From Bradymonadia bacterium (GTDB taxonomy: Bacteria > Myxococcota_A > Bradymonadia > UBA7976 > UBA1532), in assembly GCA_046290225.1 (NCBI GenBank), contig JBKAGE010000037.1, positions 349,449 through 413,448 of the forward strand: 64,000 bases of DNA. Direction: 5' to 3'. Every line of letters starts with the position of its first letter. The first letter of the stretch is position 1. Positions 20,454 through 64,000 of this stretch are shown here, in pieces. The notes beneath the pieces were generated by a model. That model was not told the DNA's origin and ran no database searches. It saw nothing but the letters and a program-made list of their open reading frames with translations. A program made the position numbers and the translations under genes.

Positions 20454-21671
20454 ATGGCTGACGAGATTCACACACCCGAGCAGCTCATCGCCGTGATCCG
20501 CGAAGGTCGACGCACGGCGTGTCCGCACTGTCGACACCCCAACCCGCCCGGTCAGCGCTTCTGCTCGAGCTGTGGGTTACGGCTGAAATTCCCCTGCCCT
20601 CAATGCAACGCCCCCTGCCAGTCGGGGCAGAGCTTCTGCGGCAGCTGCGGCGTCTCCCTCGCCGAAGTGCTCAATGATCACTTCGCCCAGCTCGAAGCCG
20701 GTGAAGCAGATGCCAGAGCCGCCCGAGAAGCTGACCCTCTGAGGCGCTATCGCACCCTGCGCACCATCGAAGAAGGCCGCATGAGCCACATGCTCGGCGT
20801 CACCCCCGAGGGCGAGCGCCACTTCTTGAAGGTGGCCCGCAGCGCCACTGGCAAGCGGCTCATGGCCAACGAGCTCTCGGCGCTGGCAGATCTCGAGGAC
20901 GTACAGGGGATTCAACACCCCGTGCACACATACAGTGACGATCAACACGCGGTCGTTGCATTCGAGCAACTGCACAACCCCGCGCTGCGGTTCCCCGTGG
21001 ACATCCCCGAGCTGCTGCAGCTGACCATCGATGTGCTGGAGATCCTCAGCGCAGTGCACGCCCGCGGCTGGGTGCACTGCGATCTCAAACCTGCGCACTT
21101 GATGCAGAGGGCCGACGGCCAACTCGCCCTCGTGGACTTCGACATCGCCCAGAAGCCCGGACCAAGTGCTTTTGGGGCCTACACCGCCCTCTTCGCCGCC
21201 CCGGAGCAGATCGTCGGTGATGCCCTCGACCACCGGGTCGATCTACACGCTGTGGGGGTCATGCTGTACATGCTCTTCACCTATGATCGATTCCCTGCAG
21301 TCCTCGAAGAGCGGACGGAGTCAGAGGCGTACATTGGGGTGCTCAAGGCGCGCCCGGCGAAGAACCGGGCCTATCTGAGTGGCCAGACGATGTACGTAGG
21401 CAAGGGCTCGCTGAGCAAGGTGGCAGGTGCCCCGCAAAACATGGCGGGCCCGCCGACGAACACCGAGGCCGAGAAGCGGCGCGTACTCGGCGCGAAGTAC
21501 CTCTTCAGCGCCGAGCTCAAGCGCACATGCGACGTCAACGCCGAGATCAGGCTCGCCGGTGAGGTCATGCGGGTGGTGCGCACCGCCTGCGCAGTGGATC
21601 CGGAGGCGCGCTATCCCAGCGCTGAGGTCATGGCCGCTGATCTGCGCCTGATCATGGAGGGCGCCCGATGA
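20454..21671 (+). CDS. Double zinc ribbon + Ser/Thr protein kinase-like protein
   Basis: CPHC/CSSC/CPQC/CGSC; FLK, HCDLKPAHL, DFD, APEQ, DLHAVG. Confidence 0.85.
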   Translation: MADEIHTPEQLIAVIREGRRTACPHCRHPNPPGQRFCSSCGLRLKFPCPQCNAPCQSGQSFCGSCGVSLAEVLNDHFAQLEAGEADARAAREADPLRRYRTLRTIEEGRMSHMLGVTPEGERHFLKVARSATGKRLMANELSALADLEDVQGIQHPVHTYSDDQHAVVAFEQLHNPALRFPVDIPELLQLTIDVLEILSAVHARGWVHCDLKPAHLMQRADGQLALVDFDIAQKPGPSAFGAYTALFAAPEQIVGDALDHRVDLHAVGVMLYMLFTYDRFPAVLEERTESEAYIGVLKARPAKNRAYLSGQTMYVGKGSLSKVAGAPQNMAGPPTNTEAEKRRVLGAKYLFSAELKRTCDVNAEIRLAGEVMRVVRTACAVDPEARYPSAEVMAADLRLIMEGAR

Positions 21672-22678
21672 CCCCCAACGAGCTCAACATCGCCTTGGGT
21701 CAACATCGCCCGTCGGGCCTCTTCTACAAGCCGCTCAAGCAGGCGGGGCTCCGGCGACTGAGAGTCCTCGAACACCCGTTGATCCATCAGTGGCTCGGCG
21801 AAGCCCCCGACGGCAGCCAGATGCTGGTTCGCGCGGGCACGCATCACGAGGCCCTCGAGCTTTTGCTCAACGAAGCAGAGCGCTGCGCCGCAGTGGAGCA
21901 CCAGCACGTGATCTCCATGGCCTGGACGGTGCGCCCCAAGGCCCACCATCTGACCCTGGGCTTTCACTGGCCCAAGCCCCTCACGTTGAAGTGGCCTCTC
22001 GACCTGCGGTGGCTGATTCGATGCTTCATCTCCGCCGCCCGTGGGGCCGGCGCGCTGCACCGGGCAGGGCTGGTGCACTGCGATCTCAAGCCAGAGTCGA
22101 TCTGTTTCACCGAGGATCCACAGCACGTGCGGATTTGGGGGCTGCACATGGCGCAACCGCCAGGCACGCCCGAGGTGGAAGCCTGGTCCGCCCGGTTTGC
22201 GGCGCCAGAGCAAATCACCGGGGCTCCCCTCGACGCCACCGCCGACGTCTATGCCCTTGGGGTCTCCCTGTACTCGATGTTCATCCGCTCGCGGTTCCCC
22301 ACAATTCAGCTCTCGGGCCAGCCACGGGGCGTTTCGCCGGCGCCGCCGTCACCGCAGACGATGATGGGGATCGACACAGGCCCCGTGGGCCCACCCCCTG
22401 GGGGCGCGTTTCTGAGCGCGGCCACTCATGTGGGGGTGATCCCTGATCACGCAGGCGTGCCTGCGGCTGCTCAGGGGCCCGCTCAGGAAGCGACCCACTC
22501 GATTCTGGGGGCCAAGCTGATGTTCGCGCGGCAGATGGAGCAGGTGGCGGAGCGCACCGCGGACATCGGCGCCGCCCACGGCCTGCTCACCTTGATCGAC
22601 AAGGCCTGCGCTCAGAAGCCGACGGACAGATTCGCCGACGGAGATGCGCTGGCGAGCGCCCTGGAGGGCCTGTTATGA
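21668..22678 (+). CDS. Ser/Thr kinase-like protein, probable pseudokinase
   Basis: ATGA overlap; HCDLKPESI, APEQ, DVYALG present; VAIK Lys and DFG not recognisable (RIWGL). Confidence 0.75.
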   Translation: MTPNELNIALGQHRPSGLFYKPLKQAGLRRLRVLEHPLIHQWLGEAPDGSQMLVRAGTHHEALELLLNEAERCAAVEHQHVISMAWTVRPKAHHLTLGFHWPKPLTLKWPLDLRWLIRCFISAARGAGALHRAGLVHCDLKPESICFTEDPQHVRIWGLHMAQPPGTPEVEAWSARFAAPEQITGAPLDATADVYALGVSLYSMFIRSRFPTIQLSGQPRGVSPAPPSPQTMMGIDTGPVGPPPGGAFLSAATHVGVIPDHAGVPAAAQGPAQEATHSILGAKLMFARQMEQVAERTADIGAAHGLLTLIDKACAQKPTDRFADGDALASALEGLL

Positions 22679-22808: not shown

Positions 22809-23459
22809 ATGCTTGGCAACTTGTTCAAGAAGAAAGACCACGCCGAATTCGAAGCGGTGGCCATGCCCCACGCCGACGCCCTCTACGGCGCCGCTCTGCG
22901 CATGACCCGCGATCCCACCCGCGCCGAAGACCTGGTGCAGGACACCCTGCTTCGAGCGTACCGCTTCTGGCACAAGTTCGAGCAGGGCACCAACATCAAG
23001 GCGTGGCTGTTCCGCATTCAGCTGAACACCTTCATCAACAAGTACCGTAAGAAGCAGACCGAGCAGACGGTGATGGACGATCGCGACATCCACGATCTGC
23101 TCCACCGTCACGCCGCAGAAGAGTCTCGGGTGATCCCCCCAGACACCCGCGACGAGTTCTTCAAGAAGGTGCTCAGCGACGACGTGCTCGCCGCCCTCGA
23201 CAGTCTGCCCTTCGACTTCCGTATGACGGTGGTGCTCGCCGACATGCACGACTTCTCGTACAAAGAGATCGCCGAGATCCTCAACTGCCCTGTGGGCACC
23301 GTGATGAGCCGCCTGCACCGCGCACGCAAGCTGCTGCAGGCTCAGCTCTTTGCCTATGCCGTCGAGAATGGCATCATTCAGGCACCTGAGGGCGTCACCG
23401 CCGACAACGTCGCCGATCTCGACGCCTTCCGCCGCCGCCGTAAAAAGGCCTCTGCCTGA
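22809..23459 (+). CDS. ECF sigma-70 factor (SigR/SigH-like)
   Basis: AEDLVQDT, GTNIKAWLFRI, SYKEIAEIL..PVGTVMSRLHRAR. Confidence 0.93.
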   Translation: MLGNLFKKKDHAEFEAVAMPHADALYGAALRMTRDPTRAEDLVQDTLLRAYRFWHKFEQGTNIKAWLFRIQLNTFINKYRKKQTEQTVMDDRDIHDLLHRHAAEESRVIPPDTRDEFFKKVLSDDVLAALDSLPFDFRMTVVLADMHDFSYKEIAEILNCPVGTVMSRLHRARKLLQAQLFAYAVENGIIQAPEGVTADNVADLDAFRRRRKKASA

Positions 23460-23475: not shown

Positions 23476-24267
23476 ATGTCGACTTCAAAGATCAGCTGCG
23501 CAGACTTCCGCCAGTTCATCGATCCCTACCTCGACGGTGAGTTCGACGAGCGCGACCGGGCCGACTTCGACGCCCACGCCGCGGGCTGCCCCGACTGCCG
23601 CCAGACGCTCGAGCAACACATCTGGTTCCAGCGCAACATCAAGCGCAACCTCGCCGAGCCACAGTCGATGCCCCCGGCGGCCCGAGCCAAGCTCAGGGCC
23701 CGCCTGCACATCGCTCAGCAGCCCGAGCGCCGCGCCCGCTGGGTCAAGCGCCTCGCCCTGCCAGTGCCCGTGCTCGCCGCAGGCGCAGCGTTGCTGCTCA
23801 TCACCCCCCTCACGGGCTTCACCCCTGTGGTGGACGACGTGGTGGAGCAGCACAATCAGACGATGCCTGTCGAGGTGCCCAGCGATCAGGCCAACGAGGT
23901 GGATCAGTGGTTCAAGGACAAAGTGCCTTTCGCCATGCACGCCCCCCGATTCTCTGATCAGCGGGTCACGCTGCTCGGCGGTCGCCTGAGCCAGCTACGC
24001 AGCCCCATCGACGGTGAGCCGATGCAGAAGGCCGCCTACCTGATGTACGGGGTGGGCCGCGAGAAGCTCACGGTGCTGGTCTTCGAGGGCAAGCAGCTCG
24101 ATCTGAGCAAGTTCGGCACTCAAACCCGCCTCAAGAACCTCGAGTTGTCGATCCTCGATCGCGGCGACTACCGCGTGGCGATGTACCGTAAAGACGGGCT
24201 GACTTACGCGGTGACCTCACGGCTGCCCGAGTCGGAGATGATCCGATTGGTGAGCACGGCCCTTTGA
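23476..24267 (+). CDS. Zinc-binding (zf-HC2) transmembrane anti-sigma factor
   Basis: YLDGEF...HAAGCPDC, one TM helix, periplasmic domain; follows the ECF sigma. Confidence 0.88.
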   Translation: MSTSKISCADFRQFIDPYLDGEFDERDRADFDAHAAGCPDCRQTLEQHIWFQRNIKRNLAEPQSMPPAARAKLRARLHIAQQPERRARWVKRLALPVPVLAAGAALLLITPLTGFTPVVDDVVEQHNQTMPVEVPSDQANEVDQWFKDKVPFAMHAPRFSDQRVTLLGGRLSQLRSPIDGEPMQKAAYLMYGVGREKLTVLVFEGKQLDLSKFGTQTRLKNLELSILDRGDYRVAMYRKDGLTYAVTSRLPESEMIRLVSTAL

Positions 24268-24676
24268 GCGGACGACCGTGCCTTCGGCACCGTCTGTAGC
24301 GGACGGTCATCGCCTTTGGCGACAGCCTGTAGCGGACGCCTCGCCTTCGGCGAGAGCTGTAGCGGACGCTCATTTGCCTACGGCAAATTCCCTGTAGCTT
24401 TTTGAAGATCACTTTGGGGGTGTGGGCTCGTCTACCGCGAACATTGTGGCCCTCTGACGGACCAGTTCCGGCGTAAGCCCCTACCCTGGTCCGGAAGCCC
24501 ACCAGACACACCAAAAGTCTCTTAGAAAGCTACAGCTCAGGCTGCCGGAGGCAGACTCGGCGTCCGCTACAGCTCTGCAAGGCGAAGCCGAAGCAAGCGT
24601 CCGCTACAGACGCAGCGCAGCGAAAGCTTTTGCTGGGTCGTCCGCTACAGGCGGCCCGAAGGGCGGCCGTCCGCTC
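24266..24676. repeat. Mirror-symmetric repeat/hairpin array: 3 full + 2 partial CTGTAGCGGACG copies, then the same set inverted, with unique hairpin spacers
   Basis: Direct copies at 24294, 24327, 24357; inverted copies at 24561, 24598, 24639; outer GAGCGGACG/CGTCCGCTC; inner CTGTAGCTTT/AAAGCTACAG. Confidence 0.92.
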
Positions 24677-24678
24677 CA

Positions 24679-26568
24679 TCACTCGTACCAAATCACATAA
24701 GCACTCAACGCGATGTCCCCACCTCGGGGATCCCCGCCGTTGAACAGCCCGCGGTACGTCAGTGTGCTCTCCGCGCCTGGCGTGATGTGATCCGTGATGT
24801 CCAGGCGGATGAGATCCACCGGTAAGCCCGGGCACCAGTAAGCGCGCCCTGGCGCCCAGTTGCCCCACTGACCTGGGGGCACCCCCTCACCCGCCCGCTC
24901 GGCGCAGCCCTTGAGCGTGCCTGCCTCCATGGCCGAGCTGATCTCGGTGAGCTCTACGTCATTGAGCGTGAACTGGTGGCGATGATCACACCACTCCGCG
25001 CAGTTGTCCTGCGGGGTCTGGCCGTGGCCGCTGATGATGGTCACCAGCTCCGCGCGGCGGGTGCCCTCGGGGGCCGTGAAGGTGAAGGGCTCCCGGGTGT
25101 TGTAGTTCTCGTCGAAAGCCCCGCCGGTGAAGGCGAGAGCGCCGCCAGTGGCCGAGCCCTCGGGGCCAGCGGCGGGCATGGCCTCGGAGAAGCGCAGGGT
25201 GATGCGGGCGTTGCGCTCAGTCTTGCGCTCCCAGTCGGGGCCCATCTCGATGAAGAACCGCTGGGTGCCGCCTGCCCGGAGCAGGGCGAGCATCGGCGAG
25301 ATGTCCTGAGCCCACCGGCGACGACCACGACGCCAGTAAGGCGTGATCCAGCGCATGATCTCCTGCCGCTGGGCGCACTCTTCGTCGAGGCAGAGCGAGA
25401 TGCGGGCGATGCGATCCCACTCACTGCAGGCGAAGGGGTGCTGGAACGGGCAGGTGACCTGAATGTCCACCTCGAGGGTGTTGAAGGCCGCCATCTCTTC
25501 AGCGGATGGCAGCTCCACCTGCTCGGTGAAGACCCGCTCGGTCACAGCCCGCTCAAGCAGCGTCACTTCGGTGATCTCCGAAGTGTCGGCGAGCCGGGCG
25601 TCGAGCGAGGAGAGGTGGTTGTAGAAGTGGCCGGCGTACGCCGCCATTTCGAAGTTCGGCGGCTGCCCCACCACAGGCGAGAGGCTGCCCACAGGGTCGA
25701 ACTGTTGATGCCGGTTGATAGCGAAGACGTCGGGCAGCGGCGCCTGGGCCATGCCACGGTCACCGAGATCGACAACGCCCTCGTCAGAGAACATGAAGTC
25801 GAGATAATTGCGGGCGAAGAGCCCGGCGCTGCCCTCGATCTCGGTCATGCGATCAGTGACGAAGTGGAAGTGGCTGCGCCAATACGCGCGATCGGCTGCG
25901 TCGGCGACGTTGGCACCGAGGAACCGGTCGAAGCCATCTCGAAGCGTGTTCATGCGGGCTTCGCGCTCGGCGAGCTCTTCTTCGAAGCTGGTGAAGAAGT
26001 AATGCACATTGCGCGGGCCCTGCTGATACAGGGGGGAGAGATCGCTGCCCCAGAGCTGATCGCCCTGCCATGGGCCTCCACCGCCCTGACGTAGATCCTG
26101 GAAGTAGTTCAGGAACACGTAACTCTCACAGCCGCTCCAGTTCTGGGTCAGCTGCCATGGGCCGTCGAGGGTCTGCACGGTGAAGTCACCGGCGATGTCG
26201 CCAAAAGCCGTGCCGCCATCCGCGGTCTGAAATGGTGCCTTGGGCAGGTCGAGATCTTCACATGGCCCATCGGCGAACATGACCTCACCGCCACCGGCGC
26301 CGCCCATCATGCCGCCCATGGGCTCACCACCGGCGCCGCCCACGGGCTCACCGCCCATGCCTCCGGCACCACCGCCGGCCTCACCGCCAGCGCCACCGGA
26401 AGGCTCGCCTCCCGCGCCGCCCACGGGCTCACCACCCATGCCACCGCTGGCTTCGGCATCGGGCGCTGGCGCCCCACCGCTGTCGCCATCGTCATCGCAC
26501 CCAACTACGACACAGGCTGAGATCATCAGGGCCATCGGCAACTTGCCAAACATCACGCGCAACCTCAT
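24679..26568 (-). CDS. Peptide-N-glycosidase F-related lipoprotein
   Basis: Lipobox VVG-C, Gly-rich linker, CSEWDR, RWITPY, SGHG, CAEWC, GNW..GRAYWCPG; start 26568 or 26553. Confidence 0.85.
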   Translation of the reverse strand: MRLRVMFGKLPMALMISACVVVGCDDDGDSGGAPAPDAEASGGMGGEPVGGAGGEPSGGAGGEAGGGAGGMGGEPVGGAGGEPMGGMMGGAGGGEVMFADGPCEDLDLPKAPFQTADGGTAFGDIAGDFTVQTLDGPWQLTQNWSGCESYVFLNYFQDLRQGGGGPWQGDQLWGSDLSPLYQQGPRNVHYFFTSFEEELAEREARMNTLRDGFDRFLGANVADAADRAYWRSHFHFVTDRMTEIEGSAGLFARNYLDFMFSDEGVVDLGDRGMAQAPLPDVFAINRHQQFDPVGSLSPVVGQPPNFEMAAYAGHFYNHLSSLDARLADTSEITEVTLLERAVTERVFTEQVELPSAEEMAAFNTLEVDIQVTCPFQHPFACSEWDRIARISLCLDEECAQRQEIMRWITPYWRRGRRRWAQDISPMLALLRAGGTQRFFIEMGPDWERKTERNARITLRFSEAMPAAGPEGSATGGALAFTGGAFDENYNTREPFTFTAPEGTRRAELVTIISGHGQTPQDNCAEWCDHRHQFTLNDVELTEISSAMEAGTLKGCAERAGEGVPPGQWGNWAPGRAYWCPGLPVDLIRLDITDHITPGAESTLTYRGLFNGGDPRGGDIALSAYVIWYE

Positions 26569-26651
26569 CCGCAACTCCAGAGCATCTGGGTCCACTTCGG
26601 AATACAGGCTACTGTGGCTGAAGTGGAGAGACGAGGTCCAGGGAGAGGGGC

Positions 26652-42954: not shown

Positions 42955-43386
42955 CTCCGGCGCTGCGGCGGCGTCAGCCGCCGTGACGCCGGCGATCTCC
43001 CGCCCAGCTGCGACCTTTCCGTCCTCGGGGTAGCGCTGGCAAACGCCTTCGCTACCCCTGCGGGTGAAAGCCCACATCTGGACGGGACCTCACCACCCTC
43101 GCGACGACTGCCGCCACCTCCGCGCCTCCGCAAGGCACGTGCACATATCCGCTCCAGCTTTGGATGACATGATGAGCACATCGTGTGGTGGCAGTCGGAG
43201 ACTTTTGCCGTCGTGAGGTTCGCAGGTTCGCGTGCAGGCGCCGTGAAAATTCGGGCGTCGTAGCCGGATGCCAGAAGAACAAAGGCCTCAACACTGCTCC
43301 CGTAGAAGTCGGAGAAATGTCGTGCACGTGCAGCGCGGAGCCGCAAACTCGTGGGCCTCACGACGGCTGACGCCGCCGTAGCGGAG
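42955..43386. repeat. Intergenic element bounded by 26-bp imperfect inverted repeats (REPIN/MITE-like)
   Basis: CGCTGCGGCGGCGTCAGCCGCCGTGA (42961-42986) vs TCACGACGGCTGACGCCGCCGTAGCG (43358-43383), 2 mismatches; internal hairpins. Confidence 0.7.
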
Positions 43387-43396
43387 GAGCAAAAGA

Positions 43397-63646: not shown

Positions 63647-63660
63647 AAAAGAGAGTTTTT

Positions 63661-63931
63661 CGGGCACGGGCACGGGCACGGGCACGGGCACGAGTTGATA
63701 CATATGCGGACCCGTGGGCCTGCATGAATTCAGGGCGATGGCTGCGACTGAGGCTGAGATGATGCGTTCCAGATCGACCTGAGAGTTCAGGTCTTGGGGT
63801 GTATGGAGGCCAAAACCTCCAATGAGAGACATATGGGACCCAGTGGAGCCTCCACCATCACAAACCTACGAGCGGAGCCATTCAGGGCCACGGGTCCAGA
63901 GCCGAATCAACTCGTGCCCGTGCCCGTGCCC
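63661..63931. repeat. (CGGGCA)n tandem hexamer forming the ends of a ~270-bp inverted-repeat element
   Basis: (CGGGCA)5-CGAGTTGAT at 63661-63699; ATCAACTCG-(TGCCCG)2-TGCCC at 63906-63931. Confidence 0.8.
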
Positions 63932-64000
63932 TGTACCAATTGGATTGTCGCTTTGGATCTTGATGCGAGGCATCTGAGAACACCACCCGTACCCAGTACA

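What the first reader, a model, noticed from the sequence alone, without database searches (positions are those of the whole stretch)
24266..24676. 411-bp mirror-symmetric array of 12-bp repeats with unique hairpin spacers: candidate novel structured RNA/ssDNA element
Seen: left arm GAGCGGACG (24266), CTGTAGCGGACG x3 (24294, 24327, 24357), CTGTAGCTTT (24392); the right arm mirrors these repeats exactly (24526, 24561, 24598, 24639, 24668). The eight spacers (17-29 nt) all differ and are not complements of each other, yet each is a hairpin: GTGCC-TTC-GGCAC, TCGCC-TTT-GGCGA, CTCGCC-TTC-GGCGAG, ATTTGCC-TAC-GGCAAAT, CTGCC-GGA-GGCAG, GGC-GAA-GCC, AGC-GAAA-GCT, GCCC-GAA-GGGC. Folded, this gives a long rod with four stacked four-way junctions. 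Structure kept with sequence varied suggests selection on fold. It fills the gap between two convergent genes. GTAG + hairpin recalls REP/BIME substrates of RAYT, but the variable stems and strict symmetry are unlike canonical REPs. Function is unknown.
Basis: partly seen in the sequence, partly recalled or inferred. Interest (0 to 1): 0.85.

Follow-up and report, generated by a model that had tools for sequence, protein, structure and literature searches.

The report
Shuffled-hairpin foldback repeat family
This 411-base mirror-image stretch is one of about 27 copies of a non-coding repeat scattered behind gene ends in an uncultured marine bacterium; each copy strings together a different pick from a small kit of DNA hairpins, and two sister repeats enclose a small ring-protein gene, so it is most likely a gene-less relative of a poorly understood mobile cassette rather than a new RNA.

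Summary
The mirror array is real but neither unique nor an RNA gene. It is one of 27 full copies of a dispersed repeat, plus single arms and collapsed forms. Its spacers come from about 19 shared hairpin modules; 25 of 25 parsed copies have a different order. Loops read C(GNA)G or C(GNNA)G on one strand in 140 of 198 modules, 0 on the other: a DNA mini-hairpin signature. Copies abut stop codons, 30 of 48 between convergent genes; no target duplication. A relative lacks the full element here. No RAYT is assembled. The genome's only two four-helix-bundle (23S-IVS/Avd-like) genes lie inside two sister foldback families, one sharing this element's centre; other Bradymonadia carry such genes between spacer-plus-hairpin arms. 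Best reading: a gene-less derivative of an inverted-repeat four-helix-bundle cassette, reshuffled by recombination. Mobility mechanism unshown. The scan noted such cassettes before on other DNA.

The parts
24266..24676 (.). One full copy of the foldback repeat family (called F1 here): left arm, centre, right arm
24266..24401 (+). Left arm: terminal 9-mer (24266-24274), three 12-bp GTAG junctions (24294, 24327, 24357), inner 10-bp junction (24392-24401), and four hairpin modules at 24275-24293, 24306-24326, 24339-24356, 24369-24391 (classes K, I, C, A); loops read TNC/TTT inward
24402..24525 (.). 124-bp asymmetric centre; mean 20% different between copies; homologous to the centre of sister family F2; no conserved fold, no four-helix-bundle remnant; bounded by AGATCA(G/C)TT and AGAGA(G/C)TT motifs shared with sister family F3
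24432..24518 (+). Three centre motifs kept between F1 and F2 at near-equal spacing (24432-24442, 24470-24481 with a GNAA mini-hairpin, 24507-24518)
24526..24676 (-). Right arm (mirror): inner junction 24526-24535, junctions at 24561, 24598, 24639, terminal 24668-24676; modules at 24536-24560, 24573-24597, 24610-24638, 24651-24667 (classes B, D, J, N); loops read GNA/GAAA on the + strand
23476..24267 (+). Left neighbour: zf-HC2 anti-sigma factor gene (after an ECF sigma gene at 22809-23459); its TGA uses the element's terminal GA
24679..26595 (-). Right neighbour: PNGase F C-terminal-domain protein gene, convergent

Best explanation
F1 is a non-autonomous, gene-less member of the inverted-repeat cassettes that carry a four-helix-bundle gene (PF05635/TIGR02436; 23S-rRNA-IVS protein and DGR Avd family; FHB below). 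Shown: a lineage-specific dispersed family that sits just behind stop codons without a target duplication; arms of a constant GTAG junction alternating with hairpin modules drawn from a small kit and ordered differently in every copy; loops fixed to G-N-A / G-N-N-A on one strand; a centre homologous to sister family F2, whose arms at one locus enclose an FHB pseudogene, while family F3 arms enclose the only intact FHB gene. Inferred: (1) the element acts as folded single-stranded DNA or a cruciform, in which the 5' arm shows TNC loops and the 3' arm hyperstable GNA mini-hairpins; (2) it is copied to new gene ends in trans, most plausibly by a complex containing the FHB ring protein plus a host or co-resident nicking or reverse-transcribing enzyme, in the way Avd-containing DGRs need a G-R-N-A-loop DNA hairpin beside a stop codon; (3) recombination or gene conversion between dispersed copies at the 12-bp junctions reshuffles modules, and microhomology deletions collapse the palindrome into 28-200-bp forms and single arms; (4) insertions survive because they keep or supply the stop codon and lie in 3' ends. 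My odds: descent from the FHB-cassette lineage about 0.65; FHB protein being part of the mobiliser about 0.35; function on folded DNA rather than RNA about 0.75.
For: Family: 197 exact junctions in 45 clusters; 26 intact centres, one interrupted, one diverged. Shuffling: 198 modules, 72 exact variants, 19 classes plus 4 unclassified, 25 of 25 distinct orders; copies with centres 5.6-7% apart carry different arms; Mantel centre-vs-arm p 0.71 and 0.05; 71% of 561 centre site pairs fail the four-gamete test. DNA-hairpin rule: 140 of 198 vs 0 of 198, background 5.9%; all four GNA variants used; module ends G-C 68 / A-T 29 of 97, C.C mismatch 75 of 97; junction exact in 166 of 179; F2 repeats it, 189 of 316 vs 0 of 316, with non-GNRA loops GTCA, GCCA, GTTA. 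d(GCGNAGC)/d(GCGNNAGC) are far more stable as DNA than as RNA (PMC13037366, passages). Placement: 21 of 72 ends near a gene 3' end directly abut the stop codon; 30 of 48 two-ended copies convergent vs 969 of 5873 gaps (my own crude gene calls). No duplication. Near-empty site in a relative's contig. FHB link: only 2 PF05635/TIGR02436 hits in the genome, both central in F2 or F3 arms of 197 and 316 bp; F1-F2 centre homology, best E 1e-10; an F1-left/F2-right chimera at C82; boundary motif in 50 of 50 F1 ends and 48 of 54 F3 ends; FHB relatives flanked by inverted repeats in 56 of 75 loci vs 0 of 75 mismatched pairs; FHB loci L269, L272, L283, L288 (same class) and L253 have arms of a constant spacer plus TNC/TNNC-loop hairpins reading inward, the F1 design. 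DGR parallel: variable GC stem, G-R-N-A loop required (PMC3240598, passages); PF05635 resembles Avd (PMC10053308, passage).
Against: No F1 copy encloses an FHB gene and the F1 centre is not an FHB remnant: the tie is indirect, through F2 and F3. The FHB gene could be a passenger captured by repeats that something else moves. The loop polarity is not general around FHB genes: 100 inward TNC vs 83 GNA over 103 loci, p 0.24, 32 vs 33 loci; the inner modules around the intact C72 gene have the opposite polarity (2 vs 12). The five F1-like loci were picked by eye from ranked output, and L288 fails the BLAST inverted-repeat test. [quoted passage not shown] Linkage decay along the centre is not significant (p 0.17), so homoplasy could explain part of the mosaic. 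F1 shows no copy-specific mirror extension into its flanks, unlike F2 and F3. Bodies of multi-copy IS elements are missing from the assembly, so another mobiliser may be unseen. The letters of the relative's 207-nt replacement were not shown; a collapsed F1 there is not excluded.
Confidence: 0.55

Rival explanations
1. A REPIN/BIME-type element of an HUH tyrosine transposase (RAYT): GTAG-tagged bulged hairpins cut at CT and rejoined, which would both move the element and reshuffle modules at the CT-GTAG junction; the RAYT is lost or unassembled.
For: Every junction reads CT-GTAG followed by an imperfect hairpin with a conserved C.C mismatch; E. coli TnpA-REP needs GTAG plus a bulged stem, cuts at CT and recombines BIMEs (PMC8266576 abstract and introduction; PMC3333891 passages); 3'-end placement and no target duplication fit; RAYT-less genomes keep REPINs for a time (10.1101/2021.07.10.451892 passages).
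Against: No Y1/RAYT in a 99.4% complete assembly; Y1 genes of 15 of 27 family relatives are long forms, and the terminal repeats seen at 3 of 17 such loci are GGGG-type, unrelated to F1; junctions are 93% exact, unlike a decaying population; head-to-tail REPs are rare in GTAG families (PMC3733652) yet are the rule here; the genes found inside sister arms are FHB, not RAYT.
Confidence: 0.2
2. A host-useful 3'-end element (bidirectional terminator, mRNA stabiliser or RNase III stem, as the IVS stem is) or a non-coding RNA, kept by selection on RNA structure and spread by gene conversion.
For: Very stable RNA fold on both strands; 47 of 48 copies lie behind at least one gene 3' end; IVS stems are RNase III substrates.
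Against: No Rfam match; centre has no conserved fold; loops follow the DNA GNA/GNNA rule and break the RNA GNRA rule; one terminator-like site vs 0.4 expected, no promoter-like site; a relative lacks the full element at this site. The one RNA run laid shows no cover of the element, but it holds other organisms and is uninformative.
Confidence: 0.12
3. A MITE of a DDE transposase whose gene lies among the unassembled multi-copy IS elements, the 12-bp junctions being transposase binding sites.
For: Inverted arms with repeated sub-terminal motifs; many IS bodies are missing from the assembly.
Against: No target duplication in 48 elements; no contig-end IS family shows F1 termini; strict 3'-end placement and strand-specific loop rule are not expected; the one DDE gene inside a foldback element (C50, in F3) is a secondary insertion with its own flanking duplication.
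Confidence: 0.07
4. A nested (matryoshka) pile of small palindromic elements, each inserted into the middle of the previous one, adding one junction to each arm.
For: Slot-specific module classes on both arms; minimal terminal-module-terminal forms exist.
Against: Arms often differ in unit number; left and right arms are not associated (Mantel p 0.11); the predicted one-layer central palindrome occurs 0 times; minimal forms join at microhomologies, as deletions do.
Confidence: 0.06

Closest known systems
ORF-bearing 23S rRNA intervening sequences (S23p / PF05635 four-helix-bundle gene between terminal inverted repeats; Coxiella, Leptospira; PDB 2GSC)
   Same: Long complementary arms with short repeats around an FHB gene or, here, around a gene-less centre; the intact C72 protein matches TIGR02436 and 2GSC; about 0.4-kb size (PMC4990558 passages).
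   Different: F1 lies behind protein-gene stop codons, not in rRNA; has no gene; arms are 136-151 bp of interchangeable hairpin modules rather than a 28-bp stem with heptamers; 27 dispersed copies.
REP / REPIN / BIME repeats of RAYT (TnpA-REP) systems
   Same: GTAG tag before an imperfect hairpin, CT next to it, inverted head-out arrangement around a variable spacer, extragenic 3' placement, collapse to single palindromes.
   Different: Four to five head-to-tail units per arm, each with a different stem; a 124-bp conserved centre; about 27 rather than hundreds of copies; no RAYT assembled.
DGR target hairpin and Avd (Bordetella BPP-1)
   Same: GC-rich stems free in sequence with a fixed G..A loop, just downstream of a stop codon; associated protein of the Avd fold.
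   Different: No TR/VR pair or linked reverse transcriptase is seen at F1; many hairpins in inverted arrays instead of one; I did not test any RT link.
Neisseria dRS3/NTS repeats with Ssn GIY-YIG nucleases; bacterial MITEs
   Same: Strand-specific DNA hairpins with a CGTC end and G..A loops (PMC11893778 passages); non-coding inverted-repeat structure.
   Different: No small GIY-YIG gene in the genome; no target duplication.

Membership tests
REPIN/BIME (RAYT system) | GTAG-tagged imperfect palindromes | tested here: met
   Junction exact in 166 of 179; C.C mismatch in 75 of 97 outer modules
REPIN/BIME (RAYT system) | Inverted pair around a spacer, extragenic, multi-copy | tested here: met
REPIN/BIME (RAYT system) | Cognate RAYT gene flanked by the repeat | tested here: not met
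   No PF01797 or NF047646 hit, no motif hit, best tblastn E 0.063; assembly 99.4% complete but lacks multi-copy IS bodies
REPIN/BIME (RAYT system) | Cleavage at CT by the enzyme | not testable with these tools
   needs in vitro assay
FHB (PF05635) inverted-repeat cassette / IVS type | FHB gene in the loop of the element itself | tested here: not met
   No F1 copy holds a gene; centre does not match an FHB profile
FHB (PF05635) inverted-repeat cassette / IVS type | Homology or exchange with arms that do enclose an FHB gene | tested here: met
   F1-F2 centre homology and chimera; F2 and F3 arms enclose the two FHB genes; shared boundary motif
FHB (PF05635) inverted-repeat cassette / IVS type | Arms of short repeated units in inverted orientation | tested here: met
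   same design at FHB loci L253, L269, L272, L283, L288
FHB (PF05635) inverted-repeat cassette / IVS type | Loop polarity shared by FHB arms in general | tested here: not met
   100 vs 83 over 103 loci, p 0.24
23S rRNA IVS proper | Located in rRNA and excised by RNase III | tested here: not met
   All 48 two-ended copies lie between protein genes; processing not testable here
MITE of a DDE transposase | Target-site duplication | tested here: not met
   At most 5 of 48 for any 2-6-bp register; longest shared word no higher than shuffled pairs
MITE of a DDE transposase | Autonomous IS with the same ends | tested here: inconclusive
   None among assembled genes or contig-end families, but IS bodies are unassembled
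Structured ncRNA (Rfam-type) | Rfam match or conserved covarying fold | tested here: not met
   a ten-sequence alignment gave only 2 of 25 pairs with double changes
Structured ncRNA (Rfam-type) | Discrete transcript | not testable with these tools
   No RNA run of this organism was offered
CRISPR array | Direct repeats with unique foreign spacers | tested here: not met
   Spacers recur 3-11 times and are hairpins; arms are inverted
NTS/Ssn system | Small GIY-YIG nuclease gene beside the repeat | tested here: not met
   Only one GIY-YIG hit, in a 625-aa frame

The most novel reading that the evidence does not exclude
Four-helix-bundle (Avd-like) ring proteins are the trans-acting core of a transposase-free class of mobile DNA. 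They recognise arrays of G-N-A mini-hairpins on folded single strands and deliver copies to the stop codons of genes; F1, F2 and F3 are the non-autonomous populations of such a system, and F1's junction-and-module arms are a natural combinatorial library of its binding sites that is rebuilt by recombination in every copy.
Probability: 0.28. Interest if true: 0.85.

Novelty: new variant of a known kind. Interest (0 to 1): 0.58.

Why it matters
The PF05635 family has a solved structure but no known function, and how its inverted-repeat cassettes spread is open. This genome supplies what a test needs: one intact gene, one pseudogene and over a hundred gene-less copies in three families whose arms vary freely in stem sequence while fixing junction, mismatch and loop. 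That variation reads like a natural mutagenesis of the recognised DNA structure and names exact substrates and controls (GNA strand versus TNC strand). It also warns that GTAG-tagged hairpin repeats in genomes without a RAYT may belong to another system. If the link fails, what remains is an unusual but local REP-like repeat.

Tried and rejected
Homologue searches for F1 outside this genome found none in those searched: 0 of 40 relatives; 1 of 300 phylum genomes with a 27-nt match at E 7.9e-4, not followed; 3 of 112 class genomes with a single unrelated pattern match; 6 GTDB, 12 metagenome and 7 viral pattern hits, all inspected, none with the F1 design; no plasmid or phage match. F2: 0 of 112 class genomes, one chance GTDB hit. 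A centre-motif scan gave 44 GTDB hits, none with foldback arms. The short-palindrome pattern is not enriched on its own (23 hits vs 33 in the reversed genome); the 16 minimal forms used were accepted by their recognisable modules. Mobiliser searches: Y1/RAYT none; IS110 none assembled; IS91 Y2 and Rep_1 uninformative because controls did not ring; four TnpB-only elements with unrelated ends; eight tyrosine-recombinase matches and two RT genes, none seen tied to F1; the single DDE gene is an insertion into F3. Integron attC reading rejected: core sites face the wrong way (from recalled attC layout). Centre as coding remnant rejected: F1 and F2 motif spacing differs by one base and no FHB match. 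GAGCTC-target model weak: 14 of 670 short convergent gaps hold the hexamer. Synteny in 11 family-level relatives is not kept downstream of the anti-sigma gene, so they give no empty site. Runs X1-X4 hold only small shares; depth there is no copy number and absence of RNA cover is no evidence. No structure prediction or complex prediction was run. Supplements of the papers were not read; Di Nocera's figures of repeat consensus sequences and TIR families are not held as text, so a listed family resembling F1 cannot be fully excluded.

Full report
Observation. The 431-nt stretch folds with z between -10.7 and -12.6 and no shuffle of 100 matches it. Mirror-register pairing of the units has probability 0.91-1.0, but facing spacers often cross-pair, so four clean four-way junctions are not the predicted optimum. 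The element lies between an anti-sigma gene, whose TGA overlaps its first two bases, and a convergent PNGase-F-domain gene. Rfam has no match for this copy or four others.

It is a repeat family. A profile of the centre finds 26 intact copies, one interrupted by a TA-flanked insertion and one diverged copy. There are also 8 single arms and short forms down to terminal-module-terminal palindromes of about 30-60 bp; their joints fall at microhomologies, as expected of palindrome collapse. I call the family F1. It was not found in the relatives, GTDB, metagenome, viral, plasmid or phage sets searched.

The spacers are a kit, not unique inserts. In the 25 copies parsed, 198 modules fall into 72 exact variants and 19 classes (4 unclassified); classes are slot-specific (inner, second, outer) and all 25 copies have a different order. 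Seven of the eight spacers of this copy occur 3-11 times in the genome. Copies whose centres differ by only 5.6-7% carry different arms; Mantel tests of centre against arm give p 0.71 and 0.05, arm against arm 0.11. Of 561 informative site pairs in the centre 71% show all four gametes, though linkage does not fall significantly with distance (p 0.17). I infer exchange between dispersed copies at the junctions. Facing slots share a class in 11 of 93 cases, fewer than pooled arms would (26.6) but as expected once sides are kept apart (10.7): the ancestral element is asymmetric.

Selection acts on DNA hairpins. The junction is exact in 166 of 179 internal positions while centres differ by 20% on average. 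Outer modules begin and end G..C (68) or A..T (29) of 97 and keep a C.C mismatch in 75; these are counts of copies, not of independent changes. On the strand opposite the GTAG tag, 140 of 198 modules close a C(GNA)G or C(GNNA)G loop, with all four GNA variants, and 32 more C(AAA)G; on the GTAG strand 0 of 198; the genomic background for GNA among C-G-closed triloops is 5.9%. Sister family F2 repeats this (189 of 316 vs 0 of 316) with loops GTCA, GCCA and GTTA that break the RNA GNRA rule. GCGNAGC and GCGNNAGC mini-hairpins are much more stable as DNA than RNA and occur at phage G4 and RSF1010 priming sites and the N4 promoter (PMC13037366, passages). The centre has no conserved fold: mean z -0.4 to -0.9, conservation index reached by 24-29 of 40 null alignments.

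Placement and mobility. Among 48 two-ended elements, 30 lie between convergent genes, 17 between co-directional genes and 1 between divergent ones, against 969 convergent of 5873 gaps (crude gene calls of my own). In 21 of 72 ends near a gene 3' end the stop codon directly abuts the terminal repeat. No target duplication is seen. A contig from run X1, about 85% alike in the genes, carries the same three genes and replaces 569 window bases by 207, which leaves about 49 intergenic bases if the protein ends are equal; the letters were not shown. A short contig of run X2 spans the left junction with 8 differences in 152 bases, so a nearer relative has the element here.

The mobiliser. GTAG, an adjacent CT and a bulged stem are what E. 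coli TnpA-REP uses (PMC8266576 abstract and introduction; PMC3333891 passages), but no Y1/RAYT gene is assembled, nor a small GIY-YIG gene. Multi-copy IS bodies are missing from the assembly, so absence is not proven. The genome has two further foldback families: F2 (about 550 bp, 39 centres, GTA-tagged hairpin slots) and F3 (hexamer arms, at least 37 centres). F1 and F2 centres are homologous (about 30 F2 hits at E 6.5e-4 to 1 genome-wide; reciprocal best E 1e-10 in a small file), one element has an F1 left arm and an F2 right arm, and F1 and F3 share a boundary motif (50 of 50 and 48 of 54 ends). Recalling that four-helix-bundle genes often sit among short repeats, I searched PF05635: the genome has two hits, a frameshifted gene between complete F2 arms (C77) and an intact 116-residue gene between F3 arms (C72). 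Both pass TIGR02436 and the intact one matches PDB 2GSC. FHB relatives are flanked by inverted repeats in 56 of 75 GTDB loci with enough flank (80 fetched; mismatched control 0 of 75), 15 of 25 class loci (30 fetched, including the own C77 locus) and 7 of 12 family loci. Most arms are 6-10-mer runs of about 30 bp, but L269, L272, L283, L288 and L253 alternate a constant spacer with TNC- or TNNC-loop hairpins reading inward, the F1 design.

Results against this reading. No F1 copy encloses a gene and its centre is no FHB remnant. Loop polarity is not a general trait of FHB flanks (100 vs 83 over 103 loci, p 0.24), and the inner modules around the intact C72 gene point the other way. The F1-like loci were chosen by eye. 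F2 and F3 show copy-specific mirror extension into their flanks, F1 does not.

How it most likely works. Shown: family, kit, loop rule, placement, kinship with FHB-bearing arms. Inferred: a folded single strand or cruciform, with exonuclease-resistant GNA hairpins on its 3' arm, is recognised in trans and copied to gene ends; recombination at junctions reshuffles modules; deletions collapse it. The closest mechanistic precedent is the DGR target, a GC stem of free sequence with a required G-R-N-A loop just past a stop codon, in a system that uses Avd (PMC3240598 passages), which resembles PF05635 (PMC10053308 passage). I give this reading 0.55, a RAYT-driven REPIN 0.2, an RNA-level host role 0.12, a DDE MITE 0.07, nested insertion 0.06.

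Comparison and novelty. It works like a REPIN and is built like an ORF-less intervening sequence (PMC4990558 passages), but fails membership in RAYT systems (no enzyme), MITEs (no duplication) and IVS proper (not in rRNA). Searches returned no paper on inverted-repeat FHB cassettes outside rRNA, and searches none on this modular design; I saw listings for these, parts 1-2 of 8 and further passages of PMC3733652, part 1 of 7 of PMC8266576, and passages only of PMC6006769, PMC3116915, PMC11893778, PMC8700078, 10.64898/2026.09.22.753630 and 10.1101/2021.07.10.451892. The scan itself has 64 notes on FHB cassettes in other genomes, some mentioning gene-less hairpins; I met them after finding the two genes, reuse their framing, and do not count them as support. 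What this locus adds is a gene-less population with long combinatorial arms and a strand-specific DNA mini-hairpin rule. Verdict: new variant of a known kind, interest 0.58.

Noticed in passing
G000 C72:82230-83380 (L169): Intact 116-aa four-helix-bundle gene between 316-bp, 96% complementary F3 arms with extra tandem inner modules; the best candidate for an autonomous cassette in this genome.
   Followed up: partly
G000 C77:107000-107870 (L128, L168): Frameshifted four-helix-bundle gene replacing the usual centre between complete F2 arms.
   Followed up: partly
window 63650-63935: An F3 foldback copy broken inside its hexamer run by an IS-like end at the contig end; 10 and 14 contig ends show the two ends of that element, those inspected inside F3 hexamer runs, with no terminal inverted repeat and no assembled body: a repeat-targeting IS.
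   Followed up: partly
window 42955-43389: Another hairpin-rich foldback element (F4) with partial matches at about 60 places in the genome but no second full-length copy.
   Followed up: partly
G000 C82:48330-48830 (L127): Chimera with an F1 left arm, a diverged centre and an F2 right arm.
   Followed up: yes
G000 C78:372744-372905 and C34:360961-361136: A small element with 18-20-bp terminal repeats and TA on both sides occurs twice in the genome, both times inside an F1 or F2 centre.
   Followed up: partly
F2 and F3 flanks genome-wide: Left and right outer flanks of the same copy mirror each other more than those of other copies (p < 0.005), suggesting arm-to-arm copying by template switching.
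   Followed up: partly
G000 C79:178058-181478: Two convergent reverse-transcriptase genes (frames of 579 and 465 aa), not next to the repeats studied.
   Followed up: no
G000 C35:40085, C35:142955, C64:11728, C45:37122: Four TnpB genes without a TnpA in the assembly.
   Followed up: no
contig ends of G000: The largest end family (19 ends) appears to be an IS inserted at a recurring short repeat; six ends carry a group II intron-like 3' end (recognised from recall).
   Followed up: no
L154-L164 (G019, G041): Relatives carry dispersed runs of five GGGCAC and of GGTCAA/GGGCAA hexamers, some in inverted pairs; the GGGCAA type flanks their four-helix-bundle genes.
   Followed up: partly
window 20454-22678: Two tandem Ser/Thr-kinase-like genes, the first with a double zinc ribbon, upstream of the ECF sigma/anti-sigma pair.
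   Followed up: no
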